Source of the DNA: an uncultured archaeon
Lineage (GTDB): Archaea; Altiarchaeota; Altiarchaeia; IMC4; SCGC-AAA252-I15
Direction of reading: 5' to 3'
DNA: 64,000 nt
Assembly: GCA_902384455.1 (NCBI GenBank)
Contig: CABMCB010000092.1
Coordinates: 316-64,315 of the forward strand
Shown here in pieces: positions 1,022-24,838 of the stretch. The translations under genes were made by a program, and so were the position numbers. The notes under the pieces were generated by a model. It saw nothing but the letters and a program-made list of their open reading frames with translations. It did no database searches and was not told the origin of the DNA. The first letter of the stretch is position 1. Every line of letters begins with the position of its first letter.

Positions 1022-1030
1022 TGGAGAAGG

Positions 1031-1957: not shown

Positions 1958-1983
1958 CTGCGGGTTAAGATGGGTAGGTTCGG

Positions 1984-6817: not shown

Positions 6818-6882
6818 TTTGTAGCCGGCCGATTTATGGCTGGTCGTTTGATATAGTAAACGGGAGGTTTCCTGTTTGGGGT

Positions 6883-8439: not shown

Positions 8440-8489
8440 CGGGGTGTTTTATAGACGGCGCCCGATATAGGTAAGGGATTTATTGGCAT

Positions 8490-10070: not shown

Positions 10071-10196
10071 GAAGGTTACAGTAGGTATCCGCTTGCGAAG
10101 ACGAACCAAGTCCAAACTATAAGAAATGCTATTAATGCCAGGAAGAGCAGCACATCTTTCCTTGTCACATCCTCGCGGATCTGTAATTGCATCGTA

Positions 10197-10204
10197 TTTA
10201 TATA
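10197..10204 (+). promoter_or_regulatory. TATA-box-like element (tttatata) upstream of the first pilin gene
   Basis: An AT-rich octamer about 63 nt upstream of ATG 10267. A 6-bp-stem hairpin lies at 10233-10249 and an aggtg SD-like motif at 10256-10260. Confidence 0.3.
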
Positions 10205-10266
10205 CCGGAGATTAAGTTATAAACACGTATAATTCGTCCCTGAGACGAACTTTACAGGTGCTATAA

Positions 10267-10617
10267 ATGGAAGGAAAAAAGAGCTTAACGCTCATGGTAA
10301 CAGTTGCCTTGTTTGTTTTTTTGGCCCAGTCTGTTTTGGCCATCACCGGCACTGAAGCCCAGTCTAGTGCGACAAACGCAATCTGCAACATACTTAATAC
10401 GCTGAGGAACCTGCTTTTCCTGATAGCAGGTGGTGTGGCCGCTTTGGTCATAACCATGCAGGGCATTAAGTGGGCCGGCAGCGCCGATGACCCGGGTGCC
10501 CGCAAGCAAGCCAAGTCTGGAATTGTTAACGCAATCATCGGGCTGGTTATCGTTTTGCTTGCAGTCTGGGTAGTCCTTATGGTGTTCTCCAAGGGCTGCA
10601 ATCTGACTAACCCGTAG
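10267..10617 (+). CDS. VirB2/TrbC-like pilin, T4SS-type pilin subunit 1
   Basis: 116 aa with a Sec-type signal peptide (cleavage near SVLA|ITG). The mature part has two hydrophobic helices separated by a short polar loop (..GIKWAGSADDPGARKQAKSGIVNAIIGLV..), the VirB2/TrbC topology. It is paralogous to 24089 and 24452. Confidence 0.55.
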   Translation: MEGKKSLTLMVTVALFVFLAQSVLAITGTEAQSSATNAICNILNTLRNLLFLIAGGVAALVITMQGIKWAGSADDPGARKQAKSGIVNAIIGLVIVLLAVWVVLMVFSKGCNLTNP

Positions 10618-10628
10618 GTTATCTGATG

Positions 10629-10673
10629 GCGCACGGGACACCGTGCGTCACCCCTATTTTTATTTCTTCTTTT
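10629..10673 (+). terminator. Hairpin plus oligo-T tract after the pilin gene
   Basis: A gcgcacgg-gaca-ccgtgcg stem-loop is followed by the T-rich run ctatttttatttcttctttt. Confidence 0.4.
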
Positions 10674-10715
10674 GCCGTTTTTTAGGTTCTATCGCCAGTA
10701 AATTATTGGTTTACC

Positions 10716-13700
10716 GTGGGCTCTCTACCTTTATTCCGCAGGCGCTTTGCGCGGAAGTTGGTGGCCGTCGTCTTTCTAGTTCTTTTGCTGTCTCAAAACA
10801 CTTTGGCTTTCTGTGTTTCATGGAGTTGCATCAAAACAGGCTATTCTAACACGGTAGAGTACATCAACTGCGTAAGGACTGACTCGGCGCAGGAGGGTGC
10901 GGTTTTGGCCGTGATTTCGTGTACGGCGAATAAGGCGTGGCAGCTTTTGCTGAGTTTTATTACTGGTGTGGCGAAGGCTATGGTTGAGGGTCTTATGGCG
11001 GCTTTTGAGTATATGTTGACGATTAATCCTTGCTTTTATAATGGGGGCATAGGTGGGATTGGGTGTACTGATCTTTTTGGCCAGCAGGTTCAGCCGAGGC
11101 CTATGGTGTTGGTGCTTGTGGGTACGTTGATTATGGTTTTGTATCCGATTTACGTTGTTTTGCTTTTGCTTGCGGGTTTTTCTTTTATTATTTCGGCTGA
11201 TGATCCTCAGCAGAGGAATATGGCGAAGGAGCGTTTTTATAAGTTGGTTATTTCGATGATTCTTGTTTCTTTGTCTCCGGTCATTTTCCAGTTGTTCCTT
11301 AATTTGGAGGTGGCTTTGGTTGAGGCTGTTTTCGGGATGATTTCTGCGGAGGTTAATAATATGACTGCTTTGTCGGGGGTGACGATTTTTGCGACTATTG
11401 CCATGATTATTGGCGCTTCGTTTGTTCAGACGTCTATTGGCGCCACTTTTGCCCTCATTGTGATTGCGGTTATTGTTGTTATGGGGATCAGGTATCTTAT
11501 GACTACGGTTTTGGGTTGTATGTTTCCCGTTACGTTGTTCTGTTATTTCTGGGAGCCTACTAGGAATTTCGGCAGGGGTTTTGTGACGAAGACTATGATG
11601 TGGATTTTTATTCCTGTTGTTCAGTCGGTTTTTCTGGCGTTGACTATCATCAGTCTTATGAGCATTGGCGGCGGAGGCGCGGCTTCAATAAACAAGATTA
11701 AGAGCAATGCTGTATCTGGGTCTATTACTGAGATCCTGATTCCTATGACGATGATAGGCGCTGGTCTTATCGGCATGATTGTGTCTCCTTTTGTGATGTC
11801 TGGGATGCTGCAGTACATCGGCGGCGCAGTCGCTGCTACTGGGATGGGCATGAGCACTAAGGAGGGAGCTACGAAGGTTCAGAGGGTGAAGGGTTTTGGA
11901 TTGATGGTGGGCGGTGCGAGTCTGATGGGGCAGGGAGTGGGCCCCAGCGCCCAGTACGCAGCCTCGACCGCAGCTTATCTTCAGTCGAGTTTTGGTCAAA
12001 GCGACGAGAGCGCTAACCTTCTCCCGTCTTCATGGAGCGGTTTTAAGCAGGAGGTAAGGGACGTTGGCACGAGCATAGGCAGGGGCGCTAGTAGGGTGAG
12101 GAGAGGCGGCAATTTCTTTAGCGCTACTCCGCCTCGCGCGGGAGGCGCTGCTTGGGGGACTCCGTGGCAGGGACGTTTTAGGGCGCCTTTCCGGCAAGCT
12201 ACCGCCCCTGTTGTAGGTATGTTAGATTCGTTGTCTCAGGATAGCGTTAACCAGCAGGAGGCCCTTAGGATGGTGGGCAAGAACAGGGGGGGCACTGCTG
12301 AGGAGGGTGAAGGTTTTGAGGGCACTAGTCTTGCCGAGAGGAATACTCCGCCTAAGTCTCCTATGTGGAAGTTTTGGGCGCCGGGAACTCCTGAAGGCGG
12401 GTACAGCGACATGTATAATACAGTCGACCAGGAGAACCGCATGAAGGGCGAAGGCAACCTGCCTCTGTTCATGTTTCCGTGGGAGTGGAGTAAGCGCGGC
12501 CAAAGTTTAGGTACGGCGTCCACTCGGCTCGCTGAGGCATTAGCCGGCAGGGAGGCGGTTGTGGAGGGGAAAGGCGGAAAGGCTCTAAGCGGCGGAGAAC
12601 GATGGATGCGCGCAGGAGCAAGCCTGGGCCATCTTGCTTTGGCGTTTAAGCCTGTTAGCCCGCTTTACCCCATCCGCCACATGGGCAGGATTCTTTACGA
12701 CATTGCCGTTGAGCTTGCTCCGCCTACCGGCCCCCTCTGGCTTATGGTGCCGCCGCGGCCAATACAGCCGTGGAAGGACTCTGATAGTAGATGGAAACGG
12801 GGCTTAGGTAAATTTATTTACGGTGCGACTACTGTCGCCCACTATGGCGCCAGGCCTTTTATGCCGCTTGCGTTGCTTCCCACTCAGGAGCGGCTTCATA
12901 GTGCCGGTTTATTCTTGAGCGGACTGGGTTTCCGCCAAGTGTATAATGGTATTGAATGGAAGCGCCAATGTAAGGGCCACGAAGCGGAATGGAAGAGAGC
13001 CCACTCGGACTATGAGGCCGCAAAAGCTTCTGGGGATTCTGCTGGGATGGCTGCAGCCCAAACGAGGAAGGATGATGCTGCGGCGAAGTACGCTTCTTTG
13101 ATGGTTAAGGTCGGCGGCCAAGGCGGGAGTAAAGGCACCCGTTTCATGGGCGAGGACGTTAAGAATCCTGCTTTCCATCGTCAGGAGGAGGAGCGCATAT
13201 CTGAGAGTAATCCTGCTTTCTACGAGCATTACCTTAGGACGGCGAGGTTAAGCAGCAAACCTATGAAGGAGGTTGATGAGGCGATTGCGGCCGGAGGCAA
13301 GTCCGCTAAGAATGCTTTTGTTACTCGGGCTATTGATGAGTTGCTTGAGGAGAGGGGTTTTTCAACGAAGGGTTTGTCATCTGGTGCTGCTGCTAGGGCT
13401 CGCGCTGCTGCTGTTGCTGAGTTCACTGTGGAGGATAAGAGGAGGATTGCTGAGGAAGCGTATTTGATGGCTTCCGCCAGCACCGCAACTGAGGGGAAGT
13501 TTGTTCCCACCAAGCAGGAGCGGCAGGAATACCGGGAGACTCAGGCCAGAAACGGATTGAATCTTTTTGAGTGGGACTCAGGCAACACTGAAATGCAGGT
13601 GCTTGCTTACGGCGTACTGGAGGGTAAGTGGCGGCAGATTGCTTTGGCCAACGAGACTCTTCTGGTGAACAACAGCGAGAACCCCATGCAGTCCATTTAC

Positions 13701-16202
13701 CATGAGGCGTACTACAGGGAGCTTGTGGCGGCAATTAAGGCTACAGGAACGGACGCCCGCCTGAAGCTTGGCGCCCTCCCGGAATCTCCGTCAGAGGCTA
13801 TGTACGAGGCGGTTGGAGGTTGGCGCAAGGAACTTAGCGAGGGAGACCAGCAGAAGGCCCGGGCAGCCCACGACAAGGCGATGGCTGCTGTTGAGGGGAT
13901 AGCGAGGGGTGTTCTTTCCGAGTCTGAGATTAAAGCCTGCGAGCAGAGGGCTGCAGAGCAGGCTAAGGTCACAAACATTCCTCTTAGGCGAGGCAGCCAA
14001 GGCCGCATCTACGCTAGGTTGGATTATGTTGCGTATGTTCAGCAGTTGGGCAAGTACAACGGCGAAGCTAATGAGATGGATGAGTTGGGCGTTGGGATGC
14101 GCGCCGGGTACAGGATGAGGAAGTTGACTGACGATGAGCTTAGGGGAGAAACCGCCATTCCAATGATTTCGAGAGGCAGGAGTGCTCACATAATATACAG
14201 GGATGACGGTGCCTACGTGATAGAGATGTATCATAACGCCGATGCCGTAGATCCTGGCTTAGGCCAGTGGATGCATCCCGGAGGAGCGATTGGTCCTGCC
14301 GGTAATTTCACGCGGGTGGGCAACGAGCCGTTGGAGGAGGCGGAGGTAGTAAACAAGACGGCCGAGCGTAGGGCTAAAGTCTTTGATCATTATGAGGGGG
14401 TTGAGAAGGATTTGGTGGGTTTTGATGTTTCGGCTGACGGTCAGCTTGTGGCTTTGACAAGCGACGGTAAACGCGTGGAATTGAGCGGCGACAGCTATTT
14501 GGTGGACCAGTCGCTTTTTGCTCAGGCGACAAACGGGGGTTTGTCTTCTCAGGAGGCGGATATAGCGCTTAGGGATTACATGCACCGTCTGAAGCAGCAG
14601 GGCGTGCCTGACGATGACGCCATGATGAGGAGCATGCAAAATACTAGGTTGAGGCGGGCTCTTATGACGGACGGAGTGTCTGACGATGTCGCAAGGGACT
14701 TTGCGAGAGTCCCCATGACAAGAGCCCCTCCGGGAGGAGTCCAACGTGAGGAGGAATTGTTTAATTTCGCGGCGATACACGCAGGCGACTACAACCCGCA
14801 AACCCGCCAGAACACCAGGTTGACTGCTGAACAATACATGACGGGAGAAAATGCCAAAAAAGTGTTCACTTCAATGAGGGAGGCAGGCAAGAGGCGGGTC
14901 CAGGAAAAAGACTTGGCCACCGCAGACGCCGAAAGACAGGCTCAAGAACGGCACAGGCAAGCCGCAGGCAGAGTGCAGATTGACGGCGAAGAACTGCTGC
15001 GCCACCCCCCCGTGATATACGACCCCAACAACAGCGAACACGTCAGACTGTACGGGCGGCCTTACGATCCTGTTAAAAATCCTGACGGCAAGAGAGCCGG
15101 CGAACGTCTTGAGCCTTTGAGGTATGATCCGACTAATCCTCATCATAGGGCTTTAGGTTGCGTAGTGTACGACCACGCTAATCCTGAGCATATCCGGTTG
15201 TACGGCAGGGGTTACAGCGACGGGGACGTGGTTTTGCAGCGGTATAAGCCCGGCGAACTGGTGGAAATGCATACTCAGGAGGAGATTGACGAACTTAAGG
15301 TAGCCGTTGATGAGGTCGCGCGTAATGCGGAAGCTGCGACTTCAAGAAGAGTCAGCGTTCCAGACCCCAGTAATCCTGCGGCAACGGTGGACGTGCTTAT
15401 GGGCGGAGAGCACCTTGACGGCGTAAGAATTGTGGCTGAAGGAGGGTGGCCTCCTGTTAACGCTGAAACCCGCGATTCGGGCACTACTTTGGTCATCGAC
15501 ATTGACGCCCAGAGGATTGTGTTGGATCCGACTACAGGGGACCCTGTGCGTGACTCCAACGGAAATTTTGTGCGGGAAAAATACACTTTAGCCGAGCTTA
15601 CGGATATGGTCAGAAACTTTTCTGCAGGCCACGAGTACACTCATTCGGCTTTGCTCAAGCAGGCCGGAGCCACTGAGAGCGTTACAGGCGACGCGGAAGG
15701 CACACGGCGGCTGGCGGACCATGTGATGGCGGACCGGAAGGCTGCTACTGAAAGAGGTTCGGACGGGGTTGTAAGAGACGTGGATTACTTTTCCGGCCTT
15801 GATGCTGTTAGAGGCGATGCGAGGGCTAGGAGGCTGTACAATGCTACTGGGGGGCAGTTTGGTCTTCTTGTGGCTGAGTCTGCTGCTAACTCGTGGCAGC
15901 CAAGCGCCGGCGACCCTAACGTAAGCATATTCGGCGAGACGCGGGCAGATTTCAACCAGCATGTAAGCCAGGCTGCTGCTCAGGTTGCTGCGGCAAACGA
16001 GAACAGACGGTTGAATCGCCGTGACGTAATGGTGCTTGCCAACTTGGCGGAGGCGGCTGAGAGGGCAGGAGACGCAGCGGTTGCCGCAAGAATAGACGGC
16101 ATGATCGCAGCCCCGACAAACGCGGCGTTATTGTCGGACTACAGGGAGGCCAGGCACGTGTCCGGGCTGGTTCACGACAACGTACGGTTTAAGACGCCGT
16201 AA
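10716..16202 (+). CDS. Giant VirB6/TrbL-like polytopic membrane protein with a roughly 1400 aa C-terminal extension
   Basis: 1828 aa. The N-terminal ~430 aa hold at least 7 TM helices. The block FWEPTRNFGRGFVTKTMMWIFIPVVQSVF matches LFEPTRSWGEKYLRKAVKWIFIPVFQAFW in 17078..19825. The remainder is soluble with coiled-coil-like Ala/Glu/Lys stretches and internal repeats (NxEHxRLYGRxY twice). I recognised no enzymatic domain. Confidence 0.5.
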   Translation: MGSLPLFRRRFARKLVAVVFLVLLLSQNTLAFCVSWSCIKTGYSNTVEYINCVRTDSAQEGAVLAVISCTANKAWQLLLSFITGVAKAMVEGLMAAFEYMLTINPCFYNGGIGGIGCTDLFGQQVQPRPMVLVLVGTLIMVLYPIYVVLLLLAGFSFIISADDPQQRNMAKERFYKLVISMILVSLSPVIFQLFLNLEVALVEAVFGMISAEVNNMTALSGVTIFATIAMIIGASFVQTSIGATFALIVIAVIVVMGIRYLMTTVLGCMFPVTLFCYFWEPTRNFGRGFVTKTMMWIFIPVVQSVFLALTIISLMSIGGGGAASINKIKSNAVSGSITEILIPMTMIGAGLIGMIVSPFVMSGMLQYIGGAVAATGMGMSTKEGATKVQRVKGFGLMVGGASLMGQGVGPSAQYAASTAAYLQSSFGQSDESANLLPSSWSGFKQEVRDVGTSIGRGASRVRRGGNFFSATPPRAGGAAWGTPWQGRFRAPFRQATAPVVGMLDSLSQDSVNQQEALRMVGKNRGGTAEEGEGFEGTSLAERNTPPKSPMWKFWAPGTPEGGYSDMYNTVDQENRMKGEGNLPLFMFPWEWSKRGQSLGTASTRLAEALAGREAVVEGKGGKALSGGERWMRAGASLGHLALAFKPVSPLYPIRHMGRILYDIAVELAPPTGPLWLMVPPRPIQPWKDSDSRWKRGLGKFIYGATTVAHYGARPFMPLALLPTQERLHSAGLFLSGLGFRQVYNGIEWKRQCKGHEAEWKRAHSDYEAAKASGDSAGMAAAQTRKDDAAAKYASLMVKVGGQGGSKGTRFMGEDVKNPAFHRQEEERISESNPAFYEHYLRTARLSSKPMKEVDEAIAAGGKSAKNAFVTRAIDELLEERGFSTKGLSSGAAARARAAAVAEFTVEDKRRIAEEAYLMASASTATEGKFVPTKQERQEYRETQARNGLNLFEWDSGNTEMQVLAYGVLEGKWRQIALANETLLVNNSENPMQSIYHEAYYRELVAAIKATGTDARLKLGALPESPSEAMYEAVGGWRKELSEGDQQKARAAHDKAMAAVEGIARGVLSESEIKACEQRAAEQAKVTNIPLRRGSQGRIYARLDYVAYVQQLGKYNGEANEMDELGVGMRAGYRMRKLTDDELRGETAIPMISRGRSAHIIYRDDGAYVIEMYHNADAVDPGLGQWMHPGGAIGPAGNFTRVGNEPLEEAEVVNKTAERRAKVFDHYEGVEKDLVGFDVSADGQLVALTSDGKRVELSGDSYLVDQSLFAQATNGGLSSQEADIALRDYMHRLKQQGVPDDDAMMRSMQNTRLRRALMTDGVSDDVARDFARVPMTRAPPGGVQREEELFNFAAIHAGDYNPQTRQNTRLTAEQYMTGENAKKVFTSMREAGKRRVQEKDLATADAERQAQERHRQAAGRVQIDGEELLRHPPVIYDPNNSEHVRLYGRPYDPVKNPDGKRAGERLEPLRYDPTNPHHRALGCVVYDHANPEHIRLYGRGYSDGDVVLQRYKPGELVEMHTQEEIDELKVAVDEVARNAEAATSRRVSVPDPSNPAATVDVLMGGEHLDGVRIVAEGGWPPVNAETRDSGTTLVIDIDAQRIVLDPTTGDPVRDSNGNFVREKYTLAELTDMVRNFSAGHEYTHSALLKQAGATESVTGDAEGTRRLADHVMADRKAATERGSDGVVRDVDYFSGLDAVRGDARARRLYNATGGQFGLLVAESAANSWQPSAGDPNVSIFGETRADFNQHVSQAAAQVAAANENRRLNRRDVMVLANLAEAAERAGDAAVAARIDGMIAAPTNAALLSDYREARHVSGLVHDNVRFKTP

Positions 16203-16216
16203 TTAACAACAGTCAA

Positions 16217-16600
16217 ATGAACATGATAAAACTTAAGGACGCGGAAGGAGGCAAGCAGTCTCCTGAAAATGAGATAAATCTGAAGGAGATTAACCCTGTA
16301 AGCGAGCGGCCTTCGGGGTTGAGTTTCGGCAGGTTGATTTCAGGGGCTGCTTTGGGGTTGAGTCTCGCCTGTTTGACTCCTGGTTGCGCTCAGGCGGCTT
16401 CTGCGCCGAGTCCTGGTGTTGCCGAGAAAATATTTGATGTGGCGGTTTATGCGGCAAGCACTATTGTTGCGTGGGAATTTTTCGCCACAATCTCAAAGGC
16501 TGTATCGACGCATTATAAACCAAGCGACTTGTTTCGTGCAGGGTGGTTGAGGTTGAGATACGGAAGAAAACAGAATAAGGAGGGAGAGGATGGCGACTAA
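16217..16600 (+). CDS. Hypothetical small protein with a central hydrophobic segment (locus accessory)
   Basis: 127 aa ORF co-directional with the cluster and overlapping the next ORF by 11 nt. A hydrophobic stretch (LISGAALGLSLACL) may be a TM or lipoprotein-like segment. Confidence 0.4.
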   Translation: MNMIKLKDAEGGKQSPENEINLKEINPVSERPSGLSFGRLISGAALGLSLACLTPGCAQAASAPSPGVAEKIFDVAVYAASTIVAWEFFATISKAVSTHYKPSDLFRAGWLRLRYGRKQNKEGEDGD

Positions 16601-17081
16601 GGGCACGGCAGGTGAAGGCAGTTCCCCTAAAGGGTCTAAGGGGAAAACTAGGGTTAGCGAGGCAGACGCGTTAAAAATCCTGAAGGAATTGGCTTGGCGT
16701 AAACTGGAGCTCTACAAATCCGACTCACTGGATGCGATACGAGGGATTGTATTGCAAAGAAGCAAAATCCGCGGAGCAAACCTCGACCCCGGAAAAATAA
16801 GCTGGGAGGAACTTTTCAAGACTAACGTATGCCCCAACTGCCGCGGAAGACTAACTTTACTGGGCGAACGCTACCTATGCGACACATGCCTGATCGAGAT
16901 TCCCGCCAACGTATACGAGGCCGCTGAAAAGCAGTATTACGGTGAGACTAAGCTTTTGGACGATGAACAGCAGGCCACACAGAATCTTTTAGATGCTGGG
17001 TACAGCATGAACGAACTGGTAGAGCTCTACGCGAAAGCGGAAAAGGAGGCGTTAACCGAACCTAGATGGGATAAGAGATGA
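16590..17081 (+). CDS. Hypothetical zinc-ribbon protein
   Basis: 163 aa with a CPNCRG...CDTC (CxxC-x14-CxxC) motif. It overlaps the next gene by 4 nt, so the two are probably translationally coupled. Confidence 0.45.
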   Translation: MATKGTAGEGSSPKGSKGKTRVSEADALKILKELAWRKLELYKSDSLDAIRGIVLQRSKIRGANLDPGKISWEELFKTNVCPNCRGRLTLLGERYLCDTCLIEIPANVYEAAEKQYYGETKLLDDEQQATQNLLDAGYSMNELVELYAKAEKEALTEPRWDKR

Positions 17082-19825: not shown

Positions 19826-19849
19826 AATAAACCCCCAGCTAACTAATAA

Positions 19850-20794
19850 TTGAATAACCACATGACAAGCGAAGAAAAAGAAGGCCGACGAAGGATACTG
19901 CAGGACTTGGAGAGGGACGTAATCCAAAGCCCCCGCGAACAAGAGGAACTCCGAAGAGAAATACGAACCCAAGACGCCGACGACATCGCAATCAAAGACC
20001 GCATACTACGCCAAGCAGAACGCATAAGAACCACGGCACCACCACCCGGCACACACGTAAGACAAACAACCTCAGCAGCCGGAGGCTCAGGAGGAAGCGG
20101 AGACGACATAGTGCAAATACCACTCAGAGACGAACGCCTACGCGACATGAGCGTCGGAGAAATACAAAACAGAATACCACCCGGCGCAACAGTAACAATG
20201 AGCAACGACGGAATAACCGTCGGCCTACACAGAAGCGACATAACAGAAATACTCATCGACCACATTTTCATCGCGGCCGCAGGCCCCACTAAAAAAGGGA
20301 AGTCTATGCTTAAGCCAGCTGGCGCCCCATGGGCATCGGAGGCCGTGAGCATGGAGCTCGCAAGCAAAGGCGTGCGTCCGGTATGGCACCGCATAACTAA
20401 ATACGAGCTTATGGATGACTACTCCAGGTACTATCTCCTGTGGGAGTGGGACCATCAGCTGCTTCGTATCCAAAACGGACTAGCCGCAGGATACCAACCC
20501 AGCGCACCCCGCACATGGTGGAAGAAAAAAATCAAAAGCGACGTAGACGCCATGATAGACGACCTCAACAGAGACCTGTCTTATGAAGGCCAATACATGA
20601 AGAGAGTCAAAGGCAGGATGGAGCAACACGCAAAAGACCATGCTGCGGCCAAAGCAGCCTTAGACCATTGGGAAGAGGACCTTAGGGGATACGACAGGTT
20701 CACGACTGAAGAGGAAAAAAGGATAGCGGACTACACAAAAGGCGCGATGGAGCAGGCAATGGCCGCCGAGAAGATAGAGGAAATATCCGACTAA
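19850..20794 (+). CDS. Hypothetical soluble protein (locus accessory)
   Basis: The 314 aa ORF is predicted from a TTG start. A more likely start is the ATG at 19862 (MTSEEKEGRR...). The N-terminus is charged. I recognised no domain. Confidence 0.4.
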   Translation: MNNHMTSEEKEGRRRILQDLERDVIQSPREQEELRREIRTQDADDIAIKDRILRQAERIRTTAPPPGTHVRQTTSAAGGSGGSGDDIVQIPLRDERLRDMSVGEIQNRIPPGATVTMSNDGITVGLHRSDITEILIDHIFIAAAGPTKKGKSMLKPAGAPWASEAVSMELASKGVRPVWHRITKYELMDDYSRYYLLWEWDHQLLRIQNGLAAGYQPSAPRTWWKKKIKSDVDAMIDDLNRDLSYEGQYMKRVKGRMEQHAKDHAAAKAALDHWEEDLRGYDRFTTEEEKRIADYTKGAMEQAMAAEKIEEISD

Positions 20795-20832
20795 ACAGAA
20801 CTTAAACATACAAACTAACACTTAACCACATT

Positions 20833-21759
20833 ATGCCGTACGCAATACCTAAAAACATCCGGTACGAGGAGAAGCTCCTAGGCCCCCTCACCGTCAAGCA
20901 GACTGCTTACGTCGGAGTAGGCGCGTCAATAGCCGGCTACATTTACATGATGAGCGGCCTGCAGGACGAAATCAAGACCGCCGCGGTACTGGTCGTGGGG
21001 TTGCTGACGATAGGGTTTGCCATGTTCAACCTCGACACCCTACTTCGGACGTACGTGGGCTTCATGCGGGCGACTAAAAAGAGCAGTTGGATATCGCCTG
21101 CAGCACGAGAACTCCTTAACATCCAAAGCATCCGCGCAGACGCAGTCTACCTGAAAGACAAGAGGATACTTGGGCTGCTCAAGGTTAGGCCCATAAACTT
21201 CGGCGTCCTTTCCGCGCACGACCAAGACACCGTCATCTACGGCTTCCTTGAGTTCCTCAACAGCCTCAACTTCAGCATACAGATTACAATGCGAAGCGTC
21301 AACCTCGACCTTGAGGATTATCTTCGGCACCTTAAACGCCGCATAGTGCACAGAGATGACAAGGTGGCTCTGGCGTACTACGAACACTTCGCAGAGTACA
21401 TGCGCACATACATCAAAGTGAACAGAATCAACGACCGGCACTTCTACGTGGTCGTGCCGGCCGCAAAAGGAAAAGACGAAAAAACAACCGTATTAGACCT
21501 GGAAAAAAGATGCGAACTAATATCGGCTACTTTAGGCTTGAGCGGGATAGTTAGCGAACGGATGGACACCCATGCGTTAATCAATTTTTACAGCAGCTAC
21601 TTCACGGAAACATTCGAGATATTCGAGTCATACATAAGCCCCATCACACTGTACAGGAAGATGTGGAAGCAGGCGCCAAAACACGTGTTAAACCAAGCAG
21701 GACCCGGAGTTTCTCCGACTGCGCCGGCACAACAACCGCAGGCGAAGCCGCCGGAATAA
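20833..21759 (+). CDS. VirB3-like two-TM segment fused to a VirB4 N-terminal domain
   Basis: 308 aa. Two N-terminal TM helices (VGVGASIAGYIYMM; AAVLVVGLLTIGFAMF) are followed by a region resembling the N-terminal domain of VirB4/TrbE/TraC (..LLKVRPINFGVLSAHDQDTVIYGFLEFLNSLNFSIQITMRSVNLD..). It ends 4 nt before the next gene, in a different frame. Confidence 0.45.
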   Translation: MPYAIPKNIRYEEKLLGPLTVKQTAYVGVGASIAGYIYMMSGLQDEIKTAAVLVVGLLTIGFAMFNLDTLLRTYVGFMRATKKSSWISPAARELLNIQSIRADAVYLKDKRILGLLKVRPINFGVLSAHDQDTVIYGFLEFLNSLNFSIQITMRSVNLDLEDYLRHLKRRIVHRDDKVALAYYEHFAEYMRTYIKVNRINDRHFYVVVPAAKGKDEKTTVLDLEKRCELISATLGLSGIVSERMDTHALINFYSSYFTETFEIFESYISPITLYRKMWKQAPKHVLNQAGPGVSPTAPAQQPQAKPPE

Positions 21760-21763
21760 TACC

Positions 21764-24058
21764 ATGGGACTAGCTGACTTACTACCTTTCGGAGGCAAAA
21801 AGAAGGAGACGACGGGAGCCGGCAACGAGACATACTCAGAATACGAAGACCGCCTCATAGAATACCTGACAAGCCCCTCCACGATCATCCAGCACAAGGA
21901 AGACATACAAATCAGCAAATACCACCGCGTAGTCGCAGCAATAGACTTCCCCCGCATCGTAGACCCAGGCTGGCTAACCCGGCTCATAGAAATGAACCTG
22001 GACTTCGACCTGTCGATGCACATAAACCCCTACAACGTAGACTCCACAATCAAACTGCTGGAGAACGAGATAAAGAAGCAGAAAACAGACCTCTACGCGC
22101 TCGAATCAGAAGGAAAAATAGTGCCCCAAGCCCTCATACAACAGCACCAAGACACACTCGCACTACTACAACTCGTACAGGAAGGCACTGAAAAAATGTT
22201 CGACGTCTCCCTCTACATAGACGCCAAAGCATACGCCTCAGAAGAACTGGACTCAAACGCCAAACAAATAATGACGACGATGAACAGCATCATGGTAACC
22301 CCAAAAATACCAAGCTACCAGATGTACAAAGGCCTCAAAAGCATCCTCCCCATCGCCGACGACCAATTGAGGGTGACGCGCAACATCACAAGCTCAGCAC
22401 TCGCCGCCTGCTTCCCGTTTGCCATAACAAGCCTGGAAACTCACGCCACAGGCATACTACTGGGGTTCAACGAATACAACAGCATCCCCATCATAATAGA
22501 CCCCTTCAACTACACCAACCCCAACGTGCTCGTCCTTGGAACCAGCGGAGGCGGAAAAAGCTACACCCTAAAACTCATGATAATGCGGGAATTCATGGAA
22601 GGAGTATCAGTCAACATGATAGACCCGCAAGCCGAATACACCGACCTCGTCAAGACTTTCAATGGGAAGACCATCAGAATCGCCCCCGACAGCGACAGCA
22701 TAATCAACCCCTTCGACCTCATGGGACAGACACTCGACGAAAAGAAACTATCATTGCTCGCATTCTTCCGCGTCCTCTTGGGCGAACTGACCGAACCAGA
22801 ACGCGCCATACTCGACGACGCCATAGACAGAACATACGAAGAAAAAGGCATAACAAACGACCCAAAAACATGGAGCAAAAGACCGCCGCTACTCGAAGAC
22901 CTATACAACGAAGTCCTACCCCTAACACGAAGCAGCAAAGACATAGTCTACAAACCGGCAATGGCCATAGTCAACCAAATGAAAAGCTACGTGTTCGGCC
23001 CCATGAAGTTCTTGAACCAGCAGACTAAGATTGACCTAAGCAACCGGATGATCAATTTCGACATCCGGGACGCACCCGACATAGGCAAAGGAGTCATAAT
23101 GTTCCTGATTCTCGAGTACGTCTACACCCAGATGAAGAAGAGCAAGACCAGAAAGATGCTCGTCATCGACGAAGCCTGGACGGTGCTCTCGGCAGGAGAC
23201 CAGGCCGAGTACATACTGCGGCTCGTCAAGACGTGCAGGAAATTCAACCTAAGCTTGTGCATGATAACCCAAGACGTAGAGGACGTGCTGGTCAGCCGCG
23301 CAGGCCGCGCCGTGCTCACCAACACCGCAACCAAACTGCTTCTGAAGCAGGACACCAGCGTCATAGACCAGATTGCGGACAAATTCCACCTAAACGAAAA
23401 CGAAGTCCGTTTCCTAAAGACCGCCCGCGCAGGACACGCTCTGCTCATCGCAGAAAACACGCGCGTCCCCATCTTCATCCAAGCAAGCCCCGAGGAACAC
23501 CGCGTAATCACCACCAAACCAGACGAACTCATACAGCTGGAGCAGGTAATGCGGCCTATGGGCGACGACATCGTGCCTGAATTCGACATCAACAAGAAGA
23601 TACACCAGAAGGCGGAACTCACGGACGACCAGATTAAGATACTGCAGGACAGAGACTTCGACGAAACCCGCATCACCACGCTAACGGGAGACAACGAACT
23701 GTTCATCATAAAGAACGAGACTGAAGAATCCGACGAACACTTCGTGCTCCAACACCTGATACTGGAAGAAACCAAAAAACACACCGATAAAGGACTGTCC
23801 CACCACACCCAGCTGCCGGACGTAACGTTCGAAGCAGGAGGAGGACGCCTCGTCGCAGTCGAAGTCGAGACGGAGGGAGGACTCAAGAGGGCGCTTGAAA
23901 ACATGGACACCAAACTCCCAGTCATGAAGAAGTACGACGACTACTTCTACGTAGTCACAAGCCCCACCATCAAAAGAGACTACGCAGACAGATTCGGCGG
24001 ACCCGAAAAAGTCATTATGCGGGACGAAGCAGCAGCCAAAATCGCCTCATACTTCTGA
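21764..24058 (+). CDS. VirB4/TrbE/CagE-family T4SS ATPase with a C-terminal Hjc/PD-(D/E)xK-like nuclease domain
   Basis: 764 aa with Walker A VLGTSGGGKS (about residues 257-266) and Walker B KMLVIDEAW. The C-terminal ~160 aa (EHFVLQHLILEE...PDVTFEAGGGRLVAVEVETEGGLKR...KRDYADRFGGPEKVIM) resemble archaeal Holliday-junction resolvase Hjc (E...VDLVA...IEVK...[20 protein letters not shown]). Confidence 0.6.
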   Translation: MGLADLLPFGGKKKETTGAGNETYSEYEDRLIEYLTSPSTIIQHKEDIQISKYHRVVAAIDFPRIVDPGWLTRLIEMNLDFDLSMHINPYNVDSTIKLLENEIKKQKTDLYALESEGKIVPQALIQQHQDTLALLQLVQEGTEKMFDVSLYIDAKAYASEELDSNAKQIMTTMNSIMVTPKIPSYQMYKGLKSILPIADDQLRVTRNITSSALAACFPFAITSLETHATGILLGFNEYNSIPIIIDPFNYTNPNVLVLGTSGGGKSYTLKLMIMREFMEGVSVNMIDPQAEYTDLVKTFNGKTIRIAPDSDSIINPFDLMGQTLDEKKLSLLAFFRVLLGELTEPERAILDDAIDRTYEEKGITNDPKTWSKRPPLLEDLYNEVLPLTRSSKDIVYKPAMAIVNQMKSYVFGPMKFLNQQTKIDLSNRMINFDIRDAPDIGKGVIMFLILEYVYTQMKKSKTRKMLVIDEAWTVLSAGDQAEYILRLVKTCRKFNLSLCMITQDVEDVLVSRAGRAVLTNTATKLLLKQDTSVIDQIADKFHLNENEVRFLKTARAGHALLIAENTRVPIFIQASPEEHRVITTKPDELIQLEQVMRPMGDDIVPEFDINKKIHQKAELTDDQIKILQDRDFDETRITTLTGDNELFIIKNETEESDEHFVLQHLILEETKKHTDKGLSHHTQLPDVTFEAGGGRLVAVEVETEGGLKRALENMDTKLPVMKKYDDYFYVVTSPTIKRDYADRFGGPEKVIMRDEAAAKIASYF

Positions 24059-24088
24059 TTTTTAGTTACTGCCGGAGAGTATGTAACA

Positions 24089-24424
24089 ATGGGCCGGACA
24101 ACGTTCATTTTATGCGGCGTAATGCTCGCTTTTGCGGTCGCGGACTGCTCGGCGCAGTTCACAAGCATACCCTCCAGCTGCGTCGTCGGCGGAGGCAACC
24201 TTGGTTACACTATCGCGCTAGGCAACTTCGACCTTTTAAACACTGAAATAATGAGCGTCGCCAGCGCCGCAGCAGTCGTGATGATTGGTATGCAGGCGCT
24301 AAAGTGGACCACGGAAACAGACCCGGCAGGCCGCGAGAGCGCGCGCAAGGGAATTATTTACGTAGTGTTGGGTTTGGCGTTGATGATGAGCGCCGGCGGC
24401 ATTGTGGGTTTCCTTCTCTGCTGA
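24089..24424 (+). CDS. VirB2/TrbC-like pilin paralog 2
   Basis: 111 aa with a signal peptide, two hydrophobic helices and a conserved loop IGMQALKWTTETDPAGRESARKGIIYVVLGLAL. This compares with pilin 1, MQGIKWAGSADDPGARKQAKSGIVNAIIGLV. Confidence 0.5.
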   Translation: MGRTTFILCGVMLAFAVADCSAQFTSIPSSCVVGGGNLGYTIALGNFDLLNTEIMSVASAAAVVMIGMQALKWTTETDPAGRESARKGIIYVVLGLALMMSAGGIVGFLLC

Positions 24425-24451
24425 TTTTTATCCGCTATTGCCCAGTAGGTT

Positions 24452-24796
24452 ATGATGAAGGCGACGGTGTTGTTTGCTGCGACGTTCATTGTGTTTTGTT
24501 TTGCGAGTTTTGCGGCTGGAGCTCCTTGTTCTGTATCTGGTGCAGGTCCGATTACTGCGGCAGGCAGCACTTTTTACGACATGATTTGCGACCTTGTTGA
24601 GATTGCTTCCGCATTGGGGACTCTTATGATTGCGATTCAGGGCCTAAGGTGGGCTGTCGCGGACGGCGCTTCCGAGCGCAATGAGGCGAAGAAGGGTATT
24701 ATGTACGTTGTGATTGGTTTGGCTTTGGTTGTGAATGCGCCAACTATCGTTGACACAATTTACTGGAACAACATTCCGCCGGCGTATAAACCATAA
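24452..24796 (+). CDS. VirB2/TrbC-like pilin paralog 3
   Basis: 114 aa with the same architecture and the loop IAIQGLRWAVADGASERNEAKKGIMYVVIGLAL. Confidence 0.5.
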   Translation: MMKATVLFAATFIVFCFASFAAGAPCSVSGAGPITAAGSTFYDMICDLVEIASALGTLMIAIQGLRWAVADGASERNEAKKGIMYVVIGLALVVNAPTIVDTIYWNNIPPAYKP

Positions 24797-24838
24797 AACT
24801 GCGGCCGTATATCAATAAAAGACTTTCTTCGGCGCGGC

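What the first reader, a model, noticed from the sequence alone, without database searches (positions are those of the whole stretch)
10190..24800. Chromosomal T4SS-like / Ced-like membrane apparatus locus in an archaeon
Thirteen co-directional, tightly packed and partly overlapping genes make up this locus. They encode three VirB2/TrbC-type pilins, two paralogous VirB6/TrbL-like polytopic proteins, a VirB3-like segment fused to a VirB4 N-domain, and a VirB4-family ATPase. Several proteins of unknown function accompany them. A coupling protein (VirD4), relaxase, integrase, tRNA target and flanking direct repeats are all absent, so this is neither a classic conjugative plasmid nor an obvious ICE. 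The composition (polytopic channel, small membrane proteins and a VirB4 ATPase) is closest to the crenarchaeal Ced DNA-import system, or to host-contact machinery in episymbionts, but with distinctive additions. The flanks are ordinary housekeeping genes: glycosyltransferases on the left and a convergent CBS-domain gene on the right.
Basis: partly seen in the sequence, partly recalled or inferred. Interest (0 to 1): 0.85.

Follow-up and report, generated by a model that had tools for sequence, protein, structure and literature searches.

The report
Chromosomal type IV secretion-like archaeal machine
An archaeon of the Altiarchaeota carries, among ordinary housekeeping genes, a stripped-down relative of the bacterial conjugation machine whose motor protein is fused to a nuclease-like domain; the same kit is conserved across this phylum and in many DPANN archaea, so it is probably a host-owned device for moving nucleic acid between cells and not a plasmid.

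Summary
The locus is real, but it holds 10 co-directional genes (10267-24796), not 13. It encodes:
- three signal-peptide VirB2-type pilins;
- two paralogous polytopic VirB6-like proteins with long tails (1828 and 915 aa);
- a PrgI/VirB3 + TrsD-like (VirB4 N-domain) fusion;
- a VirB4 ATPase;
- three small or unknown proteins.

No VirD4, relaxase, integrase, tRNA or flanking repeats were found in the window, and the flanks are housekeeping genes. The VirB4 is of the monoderm conjugative type (CD1110 model, E 2.6e-91), not Ced or HerA.

Orthologous loci occur in about 42 Altiarchaeota species genomes (57-77% VirB4 identity). A sister version (~40%) occurs in Woese-, Pace-, Nano- and Diapherotrites archaea. 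The locus is therefore a vertically inherited, domesticated system and the archaeal counterpart of the relaxase-less Patescibacteria T4SS.

New here: the VirB4 C-terminus (aa 586-764) is a confidently modelled PD-(D/E)xK restriction-endonuclease-like domain. Its H..PD..ExE..K signature is almost invariant across 150 divergent relatives, and the domain is absent from all plasmid and phage records searched.

Best reading: a pilus/channel apparatus that moves DNA or other nucleic acid between cells, with the fused nuclease taking over processing. The function is inferred, not shown.

The parts
5912..10070 (+). One GT2 and two paralogous PMT_2 (GT-C, protein-mannosyltransferase-like) glycosyltransferase genes directly upstream and co-directional. 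Possibly associated with the locus (pilin or surface glycosylation); membership is uncertain.
   Evidence: Pfam Glycos_transf_2 4e-24; PMT_2 1.5e-15 and 1e-12. A PMT_2 gene also sits next to the locus in L002/L003, L023, L035, L039, L040 and L041.
10197..10204 (+). TTTATATA, an archaeal TATA-box-like element about 63 nt upstream of the first pilin start codon.
   Evidence: Read directly from the sequence. Function is inferred.
10267..10617 (+). Pilin A (116 aa): Sec-type signal peptide, then two hydrophobic helices joined by a basic loop (VirB2/TrbC type).
   Evidence: PF18895 5e-14 (52.5 bits, cutoff 26.6); PF04956 TrbC 28.2 bits against 27.9; hydropathy; NCBI VVB54758.1.
10627..10685 (+). 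10-bp GC-rich hairpin (10627-10650) followed by a T-rich tract. Terminator- or attenuator-like element after the first pilin gene.
   Evidence: RNA fold -22.6 kcal/mol, z -2.6, 3 of 200 shuffles as stable. Function is inferred.
10716..16202 (+). VirB6-like protein B (1828 aa): signal/anchor, embedded pilin-like hairpin (aa 136-194), polytopic domain (to about aa 400), then an approximately 1400-aa soluble tail with no recognisable relatives.
   Evidence: T4SS_pilin 1.2e-6 at aa 136-194. Paralogous to E, 28% identity, E 4e-29. Eight to nine hydrophobic segments. The tail has no PDB or Pfam hit and finds only itself in 5.8e9 proteins. The NCBI start is 15 codons downstream (1813 aa, VVB54759.1).
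16217..16600 (+). Protein C (127 aa), one hydrophobic segment, no relatives found even in sister loci.
   Evidence: No Pfam or NCBIfam hit; no tblastn hit in 85 loci; hydropathy.
16590..17081 (+). Protein D (163 aa): soluble zinc-ribbon protein (CPxC...CxxC), conserved in the closest clade of Altiarchaeota loci.
   Evidence: Nine orthologues with invariant C81, P82, C84, C97 and C100. Only generic zinc-ribbon matches in PDB (E >= 0.011).
17078..19825 (+). VirB6-like protein E (915 aa): signal/anchor, pilin-like hairpin, polytopic domain (aa 1-360), then a 555-aa low-complexity G/A/S/D/T-rich tail.
   Evidence: Pfam TrbL E 1.2e-4 over profile positions 99-184 (22.4 bits, below the cutoff of 25.9). 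hhalign of the family against CD1112 VirB6: probability 71-80%, E ~1e-5; invariant R209 and P221 align with invariant R162 and P174. Tail composition.
19850..20794 (+). Protein F (314 aa): soluble, charged, with a conserved C-terminal region. Function unknown. Present only in the closest clade.
   Evidence: 12 orthologues aligned (13 found), 17-32% identity. No Pfam or PDB hit.
20833..21759 (+). Protein G (308 aa): PrgI/VirB3-like membrane hairpin (aa 5-74) fused to a TrsD-like VirB4 N-terminal domain (aa ~97-260).
   Evidence: PF12666 PrgI 5e-7 (30.6 bits, cutoff 27). NF045975 VirB4 model positions 33-277, E 8e-12. NF041427 TrsD 7e-7. Lies directly upstream of VirB4 in nearly all of the 85 related loci (no hit only where the contig is cut, plus L067).
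21764..24058 (+). Protein H (764 aa): VirB4 ATPase lacking its own N-domain. Walker A is at 22538-22561 and Walker B at 23162-23179.
   Evidence: NF045971 CD1110 2.6e-91; VirB4_plasma 6.7e-73 (model positions 284-893); TraC-F 7e-45; VirB4_CagE 1.2e-38; CedB 1.4e-15; HerA 1e-3. PDB 4AG5 8e-35 over aa 229-583.
23519..24055 (+). C-terminal domain of H (aa 586-764): PD-(D/E)xK restriction-endonuclease-like fold with signature H659 ... P685-D686 ... E700-V-E702 ... K717 ... Y724.
24089..24424 (+). Pilin I (111 aa), VirB2 type with signal peptide.
   Evidence: PF18895 2.4e-8 (34.3 bits, cutoff 26.6); hydropathy.
24452..24796 (+). Pilin J (114 aa), VirB2/TrbC type with signal peptide.
   Evidence: PF18895 2.9e-11 (43.7 bits); TrbC 30.9 bits against 27.9.

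Best explanation
What it is (shown): a host-owned, vertically inherited, minimal type IV secretion-like apparatus of the monoderm (MPF_FATA / Patescibacteria-like) kind, in the chromosome of an Altiarchaeota archaeon.

How it most likely works (inferred):
1. The three Sec-exported VirB2-type pilins are extracted from the membrane and polymerised into a pilus or conduit.
2. This happens on a membrane platform built from the two VirB6-like polytopic proteins.
3. The long tails of those two proteins probably reach towards, or stabilise contact with, a partner cell.
4. The platform is powered by a two-gene VirB4 motor. G (VirB3/PrgI anchor plus VirB4 N-domain) tethers H (the ATPase hexamer) to the membrane.
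5. There is no relaxase and no coupling protein. The motor itself carries a PD-(D/E)xK nuclease-like domain with a conserved metal-site-like signature. I therefore propose that the substrate is nucleic acid, most likely DNA.
6. The fused nuclease would cut or trim the DNA at the cytoplasmic face of the channel. It would make the ends or single strand that is threaded out, or process or degrade what is pulled in.

The outcome would be cell-to-cell DNA exchange or uptake, analogous in function to Ced/Ted but unrelated by direct descent. In the DPANN relatives the same machine may serve nucleic-acid acquisition from hosts.

Confidence split: about 0.9 that it is a domesticated chromosomal T4SS-like machine; about 0.45 that nucleic acid is the cargo and the fused domain is an active nuclease. 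The single confidence value given (0.55) is for the whole statement.
For: Parts list from profile hits.

Split VirB4: G and H are colinear with one full-length VirB4 model, at positions 33-277 and 284-893. The split is conserved in Altiarchaeota and DPANN loci.

VirB6-like assignment:
- Paralogy of B and E.
- Pfam TrbL sub-threshold in 5 of 56 family members, with T4SS_pilin in 24 of 56 and no other family hit.
- hhalign against CD1112 VirB6: probability 71-80%, E ~1e-5, with invariant residues aligned.
- The same VirB6 > PrgI > VirB4 order as Clostridium plasmid pCDC3875.

Domestication and vertical inheritance:
- About 42 Altiarchaeota species genomes carry VirB4 at 57-77% identity, then there is a gap to about 40% in DPANN.
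- Contexts are housekeeping genes on contigs of 0.5-1.56 Mb.
- There is no integrase, relaxase, VirD4, tRNA or repeat.
- No relative was found in 2.9 million viral contigs.
- The closest plasmid VirB4s are only 26-31% identical.

Nuclease domain:
- Model pLDDT 90.2.
- D686 is present in 149 of 149 representatives, E700 in 147 of 150, E702 in 141 of 150, K717 in 140 of 149 and H659 in 147 of 148, each representative being under 50% identical to the others.
- The domain is absent from 72,556 plasmid and 50,697 phage records. Plasmid VirB4 matches stop at about aa 589.
- One relative is fused to a thymidylate kinase, which links the domain to nucleotide metabolism.

Precedents from papers:
- The Patescibacteria T4SS has the same parts, with pilins, no relaxase or coupling protein, and is essential for epibiotic growth (PMC10633639, PMC12102498).
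- Ced/Ted are domesticated T4SS that import DNA (PMC9905601).
- VirB6 proteins carry an N-terminal pilin-like region (PMC9905601), as seen here.
Against: - No experiment or expression data for these genes was found. Two Altiarchaeales genomics and transcriptomics papers never mention them.
- The nuclease-like domain lacks the canonical Lys of (D/E)xK (it has ExE). Activity depends on a distal K717 that I could not place in 3D, so the domain could be a DNA-binding or protein-interaction module.
- The authors of the Patescibacteria study argue that the lack of relaxase and coupling protein points away from DNA transport and towards protein export (PMC10633639).
- The VirB6 assignment is remote, and its structure prediction failed (pLDDT 41.7).
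- Only this 64-kb window of the genome was seen, so VirD4 or a relaxase could be encoded elsewhere.
- The taxon assignment rests on the relatives of the locus proteins, not on marker genes.
Confidence: 0.55

Rival explanations
1. Cell-contact or secretion machine for proteins or other non-nucleic-acid cargo. The apparatus exports effectors, or mediates exchange of nutrients or lipids with partner cells, as proposed for Patescibacteria and for the nanohaloarchaeal giant VirB4-bearing proteins. The nuclease-like domain would be regulatory or structural.
For: The parts list is the same as the Southlakia T4SS, whose authors favour protein export because relaxase and T4CP are missing. Sister systems sit in putatively host-dependent DPANN lineages. 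Giant membrane proteins next to VirB4-like ATPases in nanohaloarchaea were proposed to secrete effectors. The two VirB6-like proteins have long tails that could contact a partner.
Against: No effector-like genes or signal-bearing cargo were recognised in the locus. The acidic/His/Lys signature of the fused PD-(D/E)xK-like domain is almost invariant across more than 140 divergent relatives, which is hard to explain without catalysis on nucleic acid. Altiarchaeota are not known to be episymbionts (my own knowledge).
Confidence: 0.25
2. Adhesive or structural pilus system only. The pilins and platform make surface filaments for biofilm or attachment, or help assemble other Altiarchaeota surface structures such as hami, with no transport function.
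For: There are three or more pilin genes per locus with signal peptides. A terminator-like hairpin after the first pilin suggests a highly expressed major subunit. Glycosyltransferases are adjacent. Altiarchaeum is known for elaborate surface appendages.
Against: The system is shared with DPANN archaea. The published hamus subunit is an S-layer-like protein, not a VirB2 pilin (title and abstract of PMC4460559, listed). This reading does not explain the nuclease-like domain on the cytoplasmic motor. The window's approximately 51% GC suggests a lineage other than the hami-bearing Altiarchaeum, whose GC I recall (own knowledge, not checked) to be much lower.
Confidence: 0.1
3. Integrated conjugative element or decaying plasmid remnant that happens to lie in the chromosome.
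For: The VirB4 belongs to the family used by conjugative elements of monoderm bacteria. One 43%-identical fused VirB4 (P0114) lies on a 27-kb contig with resolvase and Fic genes.
Against: There is no integrase, relaxase, T4CP, replication gene, tRNA target or flanking repeat. All ten ORFs are intact. The VirB4 is 57-77% identical across about 42 species genomes, with co-varying partner genes and differing housekeeping flanks. No relatives were found in viral contigs, and the nuclease-like domain was not found in plasmids.
Confidence: 0.03
4. Not a T4SS at all: a HerA/FtsK-type DNA pump with a nuclease partner (like HerA-NurA) that has been misread.
For: DUF87/HerA central-domain Pfam hit (1e-12) and a nuclease-like domain on the same protein.
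Against: VirB4-family models score 133-307 bits, against 17.7 for HerA and 20.4 for FtsK. The best solved relative is a VirB4. The neighbours are pilins, a PrgI/VirB3 fusion and VirB6-like proteins.
Confidence: 0.01

Closest known systems
Chromosomal T4SS of Patescibacteria/CPR (e.g. Ca. Southlakia epibionticum SEML1_0006-0019)
   Same: Chromosomal and lineage-wide. Derived from monoderm (MPF_FATA) conjugation machinery. Parts are VirB4, a separate TrsD-like VirB4 N-domain, PrgI/VirB3, VirB6 and several VirB2-like pilins. No relaxase and no linked coupling protein (PMC12102498, PMC10633639). The window has all of these.
   Different: The host is an archaeon not known to be an episymbiont. PrgI and TrsD are fused here, whereas no VirB3-VirB4 fusions were reported in CPR. 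There are two VirB6-like proteins with 555-aa and ~1400-aa tails. The VirB4 carries a C-terminal PD-(D/E)xK-like domain, and the Patescibacteria T4SS paper searched (PMC12102498) never uses the word 'nuclease'. The direct phylogenetic relation was not tested here.
MPF_FATA conjugative T4SS of Firmicutes/Actinobacteria (CD1110 VirB4 / CD1112 VirB6 / PrgI, e.g. C. botulinum pCDC3875)
   Same: This is the best-scoring VirB4 family (E 2.6e-91). The VirB6 > PrgI > VirB4 order is the same. The VirB6-like family aligns to CD1112 with its invariant Arg and Pro matched.
   Different: Only 26-31% VirB4 identity, and the score of 307 bits is just below the curated cutoff of 325. The window lacks the VirD4, relaxase and cell-wall hydrolase found there. 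It has pilins, which Gram-positive systems generally lack. It is chromosomal and vertically inherited.
Ced (Sulfolobales) and Ted (Thermoproteales) DNA-import systems
   Same: Archaeal, chromosomal, domesticated T4SS made of a VirB2-like pilin, a VirB6-like channel and a VirB4-like ATPase without relaxase. Pilins have a cleavable signal peptide, as in TedC. VirB6 carries an N-terminal pilin-like region (PMC9905601).
   Different: Not the same family. CedB scores 57 bits against a cutoff of 700, and CedD 64.5 bits against 600. The VirB4 here is split and carries a nuclease-like domain. The Ted-associated HerA, ParA and Rad50 genes are absent from the window.
Nanohaloarchaeal giant 'SPEARE' proteins with a VirB4/TraG-like ATPase domain
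   Same: A DPANN-side precedent for giant membrane proteins encoded with VirB4-like ATPases and proposed to form a T4SS-like host-contact machine (PMC10266531).
   Different: There the ATPase domain is part of the giant Ig-repeat protein. Here the giant proteins are VirB6-like and the ATPase is separate. No Ig-like repeats were detected.
Rickettsiales rvh T4SS with tandem extended VirB6 paralogues, and F-plasmid TraG (my own knowledge, not tested here)
   Same: Duplicated VirB6-family genes with long C-terminal extensions. Compare the two here, and the 5-6 tandem copies in L024 and L038. In F TraG, a VirB6-like N-domain carries a C-terminal domain used for mating-pair stabilisation.
   Different: Those are bacterial diderm systems with a full outer-membrane core. 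No sequence similarity of the tails was detected.
PD-(D/E)xK nucleases (Can2/Card1 nuclease domain, NucS/EndoMS, Hjc, type II restriction enzymes)
   Different: No sequence-level family match in Pfam or PDB. The motif is ExE, not (D/E)xK, with a conserved Lys 15 residues further on. Fusion of such a domain to a VirB4 was not found in the literature searched.

Membership tests
Type IV secretion system (VirB4-based, monoderm/MPF_FATA-like) | VirB4-family ATPase with Walker A and B motifs | tested here: met
   NF045971 2.6e-91 (307 bits, curated cutoff 325); TIGR00929 1.2e-38; PDB 4AG5 8e-35. GTSGGGKS at aa 259-266 and VIDEAW at aa 467-472.
Type IV secretion system (VirB4-based, monoderm/MPF_FATA-like) | VirB3/PrgI membrane partner next to VirB4 | tested here: met
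   PF12666 PrgI 30.6 bits against cutoff 27 in G, which ends 4 nt upstream of H.
Type IV secretion system (VirB4-based, monoderm/MPF_FATA-like) | VirB6/TrbL polytopic channel protein | tested here: inconclusive
   Pfam TrbL 22.4 bits, below the cutoff of 25.9. It hits 5 of 56 family members. hhalign against CD1112 VirB6: probability 71-80%, E ~1e-5, with invariant R and P aligned. No PDB sequence hit. The AF2 model was unusable. Position and topology fit.
Type IV secretion system (VirB4-based, monoderm/MPF_FATA-like) | VirB2/TrbC-type pilin(s) | tested here: met
   Three ORFs score above the PF18895 cutoff, and two also above the TrbC cutoff.
Conjugative plasmid / ICE | Relaxase and type IV coupling protein (VirD4/TcpA) | tested here: not met
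   No such Pfam or NCBIfam family in the 10 locus proteins or in 30 other window ORFs. No tblastn hit to a CD1115 VirD4 in the window or in 85 related loci. Only 64 kb of the genome was seen.
Conjugative plasmid / ICE | Integrase, tRNA or other att target, flanking direct repeats | tested here: not met
   No tRNA, no integrase family, and only short chance-level repeats.
Ced DNA-import system | CedB-type ATPase (NCBIfam NF041017 equivalog) | tested here: not met
   57 bits against a cutoff of 700; the VirB4/CD1110 models score 5-fold higher.
Ced DNA-import system | Demonstrated DNA import between cells | not testable with these tools
   Requires genetics or transfer assays.
Patescibacteria-type domesticated T4SS | VirB4 + separate TrsD-like N-domain + PrgI + VirB6 + VirB2-like pilins, chromosomal, no relaxase | tested here: met
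   All parts are present. TrsD NF041427 hits at E 7e-7 (29 bits, below its curated cutoff of 200). Chromosomal context. The parts list is taken from PMC12102498.
Patescibacteria-type domesticated T4SS | VirB4 inside the Patescibacteria VirB4 clade | not tested
The nearest relatives found are archaeal.
PD-(D/E)xK nuclease superfamily (H aa 586-764) | alpha-beta-beta-beta-alpha-beta core fold | tested here: met
PD-(D/E)xK nuclease superfamily (H aa 586-764) | Catalytic D ... (D/E)xK motif | tested here: inconclusive
   P685-D686 and E700 are in the expected strands and near-invariant. Position +2 is Glu, not Lys. A conserved Lys (K717, 140 of 149) lies in the next helix. Its 3D placement was not checked.
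PD-(D/E)xK nuclease superfamily (H aa 586-764) | Metal-dependent nucleic-acid cleavage | not testable with these tools
   Needs biochemistry.
HerA/FtsK DNA pumps | Best match to HerA or FtsK models | tested here: not met
   HerA_antiphage 17.7 bits and FtsK_SpoIIIE 20.4 bits, against 307 bits for VirB4 CD1110.

The most novel reading that the evidence does not exclude
The locus represents an ancient nucleic-acid trafficking machine shared by Altiarchaeota and the DPANN archaea. It is a T4SS in which a nuclease fused to the VirB4 motor replaces the relaxase and coupling-protein module. It would be used to pull in, or hand over, DNA or RNA between attached cells. In the host-dependent lineages it would serve as a feeding organ for nucleotides. 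Together with the equivalent Patescibacteria system, it would be a cross-domain 'toolkit' underlying the ultrasmall-symbiont lifestyle.
Probability: 0.3. Interest if true: 0.85.

Novelty: new variant of a known kind. Interest (0 to 1): 0.64.

Why it matters
Domesticated, relaxase-less T4SSs are known from two places. Ced/Ted in Crenarchaeota imports DNA. The Patescibacteria system is essential for epibiotic growth, but its cargo is unknown.

This locus shows that a third, very widespread set exists in Altiarchaeota and DPANN archaea: at least 264 loci in species-representative genomes. It also offers a concrete handle on the cargo question, because a conserved nuclease-like domain is welded to the motor.

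If that domain is active, it would explain how a T4SS can handle DNA without a relaxase or coupling protein. It would also give a testable mechanism for gene flow, or for nucleic-acid scavenging, in uncultivated subsurface archaea and their symbionts.

If it is not active, the locus is still the first described candidate cell-cell transfer machine for Altiarchaeota, as far as the searched literature goes.

Tried and rejected
- **Exact look-up of the window's VirB4 in assemblies:** not on record.
- **Word-index homology search with the VirB6-like domain:** found nothing. The search with the 1828-aa protein found only itself.
- **AlphaFold2 of the VirB6-like domain:** A run with the two window paralogues gave pLDDT 41.7, which is unusable, so no fold search was made.
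- **VirB6-like profile against PDB sequences:** no hit. hhalign against a single CD1112 sequence was not significant. It became informative only against an 8-sequence CD1112 alignment.
- **afdb50 fold library:** unavailable.
- **Unknown proteins:** the B tail, F and the F-family profile have no PDB sequence relatives. The D-family profile gave only generic zinc ribbons.
- **Nuclease-like domain by sequence:** the profile against PDB gave only spurious ubiquitin and Rev7 hits. Only the structure revealed the fold.
- **Contexts of two stand-alone domain proteins:** short contigs, uninformative.
- **Viral contigs:** no relatives.

Considered and rejected:
- ICE or plasmid remnant: no mobility genes, and conservation is phylum-wide.
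- HerA-NurA-like pump: the HMM scores rule it out.
- Hami assembly machine: the system is shared with DPANN, and the hamus subunit is not a VirB2 pilin.
- The G/H split as a frameshift artefact: the split is conserved in essentially all related loci.

Full report

Yes, with one correction. Between 10267 and 24796 the + strand carries ten ORFs, not thirteen. They are separated by 98, 14, -11, -4, 24, 38, 4, 30 and 27 nt. They correspond to ten consecutive GenBank proteins, VVB54758-VVB54767, of an 85,105-bp contig labelled 'uncultured archaeon'.

I label the ORFs as follows:

| Label | Coordinates | Length |
|---|---|---|
| A | 10267-10617 | 116 aa |
| B | 10716-16202 | 1828 aa |
| C | 16217-16600 | 127 aa |
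| D | 16590-17081 | 163 aa |
| E | 17078-19825 | 915 aa |
| F | 19850-20794 | 314 aa |
| G | 20833-21759 | 308 aa |
| H | 21764-24058 | 764 aa |
| I | 24089-24424 | 111 aa |
| J | 24452-24796 | 114 aa |

The rest of the window is ordinary chromosome:
- glycosyltransferases, a CBS protein, HMG-CoA reductase and aconitase/LeuCD-like subunits;
- isopropylmalate/isocitrate dehydrogenase, an ABC transporter, PurA and PurL;
- a MutS-like protein, form III-type RuBisCO and glutamate synthase.

There is no tRNA or Rfam element.

**2. What the proteins are**

*Pilins.* A, I and J exceed the Pfam gathering score for T4SS_pilin (52.5, 34.3 and 43.7 bits against 26.6). A and J also exceed the score for TrbC/VirB2. 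Each has an N-terminal signal-peptide-like segment and two hydrophobic helices joined by a basic loop. This is the VirB2 architecture.

*VirB3 plus VirB4 N-domain.* G has a PrgI/VirB3 segment at aa 5-74 (30.6 bits against 27). Its aa 31-259 align to positions 33-277 of a full-length mycoplasma-ICE VirB4 model and to TrsD.

*VirB4.* H aligns to positions 284-893 of that same model. Its best hit is the CD1110 VirB4 family at E 2.6e-91. Its best solved relative is the Thermoanaerobacter VirB4 C-terminal domain (4AG5, E 8e-35, aa 229-583). G and H together therefore make one VirB3-VirB4 split after the N-domain.

*Not Ced, HerA or FtsK.* CedB (57 bits), CedD (64.5), HerA (17.7) and FtsK (20.4) score far lower.

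*VirB6-like proteins.* B and E share a paralogous polytopic N-domain (28% identity, E 4e-29). It begins with a pilin-like hairpin (T4SS_pilin 1.2e-6 in B), a feature described for CedA and VirB6 (PMC9905601). The VirB6 assignment is remote:
- Pfam TrbL hits E at 22.4 bits, below the cutoff of 25.9.
- TrbL hits 5 of 56 family members. T4SS_pilin hits 24 of 56. No other family hits at all.
- A profile of the family aligns to an 8-sequence alignment of Firmicute CD1112 VirB6/TrbL proteins with probability 71-80% and E 1.4e-5 to 3.6e-5 over 165-181 columns.
- In that alignment the invariant Arg and Pro of both families are superposed.

Together with the position upstream of PrgI/VirB4, I accept 'VirB6-like' as likely but not proven. 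The structure prediction failed.

*Tails and unknowns.* The tails of B (~1400 aa) and E (555 aa, low complexity) have no detectable relatives. C has no relatives. D is a conserved zinc ribbon. F is a conserved soluble protein of unknown fold.

**3.

H extends about 180 residues beyond the VirB4 ATPase. With a 25-sequence alignment, AlphaFold2 gives a confident model (pLDDT 90.2).

Both structure searches rank PD-(D/E)xK nucleases first:
- Foldseek independently lists AF2093, NucS/EndoMS, YaeQ, Can2, Hjc and N.BspD6I first.

A profile of the domain finds 483 representative proteins in 1.84 billion. Over the best 150, each under 50% identical to the others, these residues are conserved:
- H659 in 147 of 148;
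- P685 in 126, and D686 in 149 of 149;
- E700 in 147 of 150, with Asp in the other 3;
- E702 in 141 of 150;
- K717 in 140 of 149.

P685-D686 opens a beta-strand and E700-V-E702 lies in the next long strand. This is the canonical layout, except that Lys is not at +2 but 15 residues later. This pattern is what one expects of an active metal-dependent nuclease. Activity is inferred, not shown.

The domain is absent from all 72,556 plasmid and 50,697 phage records (tblastn E <= 1e-3). In the listed best matches, plasmid VirB4 hits stop at about aa 589 of H, the furthest reaching aa 679.

It also occurs in shorter proteins, one of them fused to a thymidylate kinase. Named VirB4 carriers outside Altiarchaeota are from Nanoarchaeota and Diapherotrites. 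I found no paper describing a VirB4-nuclease fusion.

**4. Whose locus is it, and is it mobile?**

*Relatives.* The VirB4 has more than 110 close relatives (54-79% identity). Nearly all that carry a source name are labelled Ca. Altiarchaeota or Altiarchaeales. In one genome per species of GTDB, 264 loci encode a relative:
- About 42 are Altiarchaeota at 57-77% identity.
- There is then a sharp gap to about 38-42% in Woesearchaeota, Pacearchaeota and Nanoarchaeota.

*Synteny.* G lies directly upstream of H in nearly all related loci of both groups. VirB6-like genes and pilins accompany them. D and F are confined to the window's closest clade.

*Context.* In long contigs (0.54, 1.36, 1.39 and 1.56 Mb) the neighbours are aminoacyl-tRNA synthetases, eRF1, prefoldin and the like.

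*Mobility signs are absent:*
- No flanking repeats.
- No mobility genes in the window.
- No VirD4 tblastn hit in the window or in 85 loci.
- No relatives in IMG/VR viral contigs.

The locus is thus a vertically inherited, host-owned system, not an ICE.

*Caveat on taxonomy.* The taxon call rests on the relatives of the locus proteins, not on marker genes. The window's approximately 51% GC suggests a lineage other than the low-GC, hami-bearing Ca. Altiarchaeum (my recollection). The double membrane described for that genus (abstract of PMC4500143, listed) may therefore not apply here.

**5. Comparison with known systems**

*Monoderm conjugation.* The gene order VirB6 > PrgI > VirB4 and the VirB4 family are those of monoderm conjugation, for example C. 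botulinum pCDC3875. The VirD4, relaxase and wall hydrolase of that plasmid are missing here, and pilins are added.

*Patescibacteria T4SS.* That combination is exactly what was reported for the Patescibacteria T4SS:
- It comprises VirB4, TrsD, PrgI, VirB6 and VirB2-like pilins.
- It is chromosomal and has no relaxase or linked coupling protein.
- It is essential for epibiotic growth of Southlakia (PMC12102498, PMC10633639).

This is the closest known system. The differences are the archaeal host, the PrgI-TrsD fusion, the long-tailed VirB6 paralogues and the nuclease-like domain.

*Ced/Ted.* These are functional analogues: archaeal, domesticated, and DNA importers (PMC9905601). By HMM score they are not the same family.

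*Other parallels.* Nanohaloarchaeal giant proteins with VirB4-like domains are a looser DPANN precedent (PMC10266531). Tandem, extended VirB6 paralogues recall Rickettsiales rvh systems and F TraG (my own knowledge). Compare the 5-6 tandem copies in L024 and L038.

*Prior description.* I found no description of this system in Altiarchaeota. Searches for 'Altiarchaeota' with 'type IV secretion' and for 'Altiarchaeum' with 'VirB4' returned nothing relevant. Two Altiarchaeales genomics and transcriptomics papers do not mention secretion, conjugation or pili.

**6. Mechanism**

*Shown:* the parts list, the split motor, the nuclease-like fold and its conserved signature, the chromosomal context and the phyletic spread.

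*Inferred:*
- The pilins are Sec-exported and polymerised on a VirB6-like platform, energised by the G-anchored H ATPase.
- The VirB6 tails mediate contact.
- Because the machine lacks relaxase and T4CP but has a nuclease-like module on the cytoplasmic motor, the cargo is nucleic acid processed at the channel entrance. This would give DNA exchange or uptake between cells. In host-dependent DPANN relatives it may serve nucleic-acid acquisition.
- A 2026 preprint on a Patescibacterium that feeds on host RNA, and shows T4SS-like tubes at the contact site, makes this reading plausible by analogy.

*Expression signals.* A TATA-like TTTATATA sits upstream of pilin A. A strong hairpin plus T-tract follows it. 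Together they suggest a separately abundant major-pilin transcript with read-through into the rest.

*Main rival.* The chief alternative is protein or other cargo with a non-catalytic domain. The structural-pilus, ICE and HerA readings are less likely (see the rival explanations).

**7. Verdict**

It is a new variant of a known kind: a domesticated T4SS that is phylum-wide in Altiarchaeota and shared with DPANN archaea. It is distinguished by a VirB4-nuclease fusion that makes the long-standing cargo question for relaxase-less T4SSs directly testable.

Noticed in passing
P0116 (VVB54988.1, 117-kb contig of the same submission); L048:5983-12253: A second, DPANN-type VirB4 locus (41% identical to H, with its own G-like and ~300-aa upstream genes) exists in the same GenBank submission. 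It is also present in the Altiarchaeota single-cell genome SCGC AAA252-I15, next to a type I restriction-modification system and PRPP synthetase. Altiarchaeota may carry two paralogous systems, or these contigs may come from attached symbionts.
   Followed up: partly
P0129 (1426 aa), P0111, P0113 (relatives of H): Some VirB4 relatives carry an intein (Intein_splicing plus LAGLIDADG) inserted in the P-loop ATPase domain.
   Followed up: no
window 5912-10070; L002:5505-7106, L023, L035, L039-L041: One GT2 and two paralogous PMT_2 glycosyltransferase genes lie directly upstream and co-directional. A PMT_2 gene recurs next to the locus in distant Altiarchaeota lineages, hinting at glycosylation of pilins or other parts of the machine.
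   Followed up: partly
P0128-P0274 (representatives matched by the H aa 586-764 profile); L094, L095: The nuclease-like domain is mostly found outside VirB4. Of the top 150 representatives, 127 are under 420 aa, with the domain at the C-end behind unknown N-terminal regions. One is fused to a thymidylate kinase (P0156). Their contexts were uninformative.
   Followed up: partly
L024:8058-12931 (- strand), L038:1185-6459: Tandem arrays of five to six ~320-420-aa VirB6-like paralogues in other Altiarchaeota, in place of the two long-tailed copies seen in the window.
   Followed up: no
window 10197-10204 and 10627-10685: TTTATATA (archaeal TATA-like) lies upstream of pilin A. A 10-bp GC hairpin plus T-tract follows it (-22.6 kcal/mol, z -2.6). 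The major pilin is possibly transcribed separately.
   Followed up: partly
window 54685-55557: A 290-aa ORF with a weak PriCT_1 (primase C-terminal) hit (E 3e-4), lying between PurL and RuBisCO. It is the only faintly mobile-element-like gene seen in the window, 30 kb from the locus.
   Followed up: no
window 1-5852: Three large - strand ORFs (359, 645 and 654 aa) have no Pfam family, or only a weak DUF63 hit. This region also has extreme AT skew (-0.5 to -0.2) and GC skew (+0.3 to +0.4).
   Followed up: no
whole window (composition profile): GC is about 51%, much higher than I recall for Ca. Altiarchaeum (about one third). The organism is probably a different Altiarchaeota lineage. Within the locus, the region encoding the tail of B is the most GC-rich part (0.55-0.565).
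   Followed up: no
L004:10001-13300 (P0114): A 1099-aa unsplit VirB4 (43% identical, with the nuclease-like domain) sits on a 27-kb contig with resolvase, Fic, XPB-like helicase and DnaJ-domain genes. It is possibly a mobile-element version of the same system.
   Followed up: no
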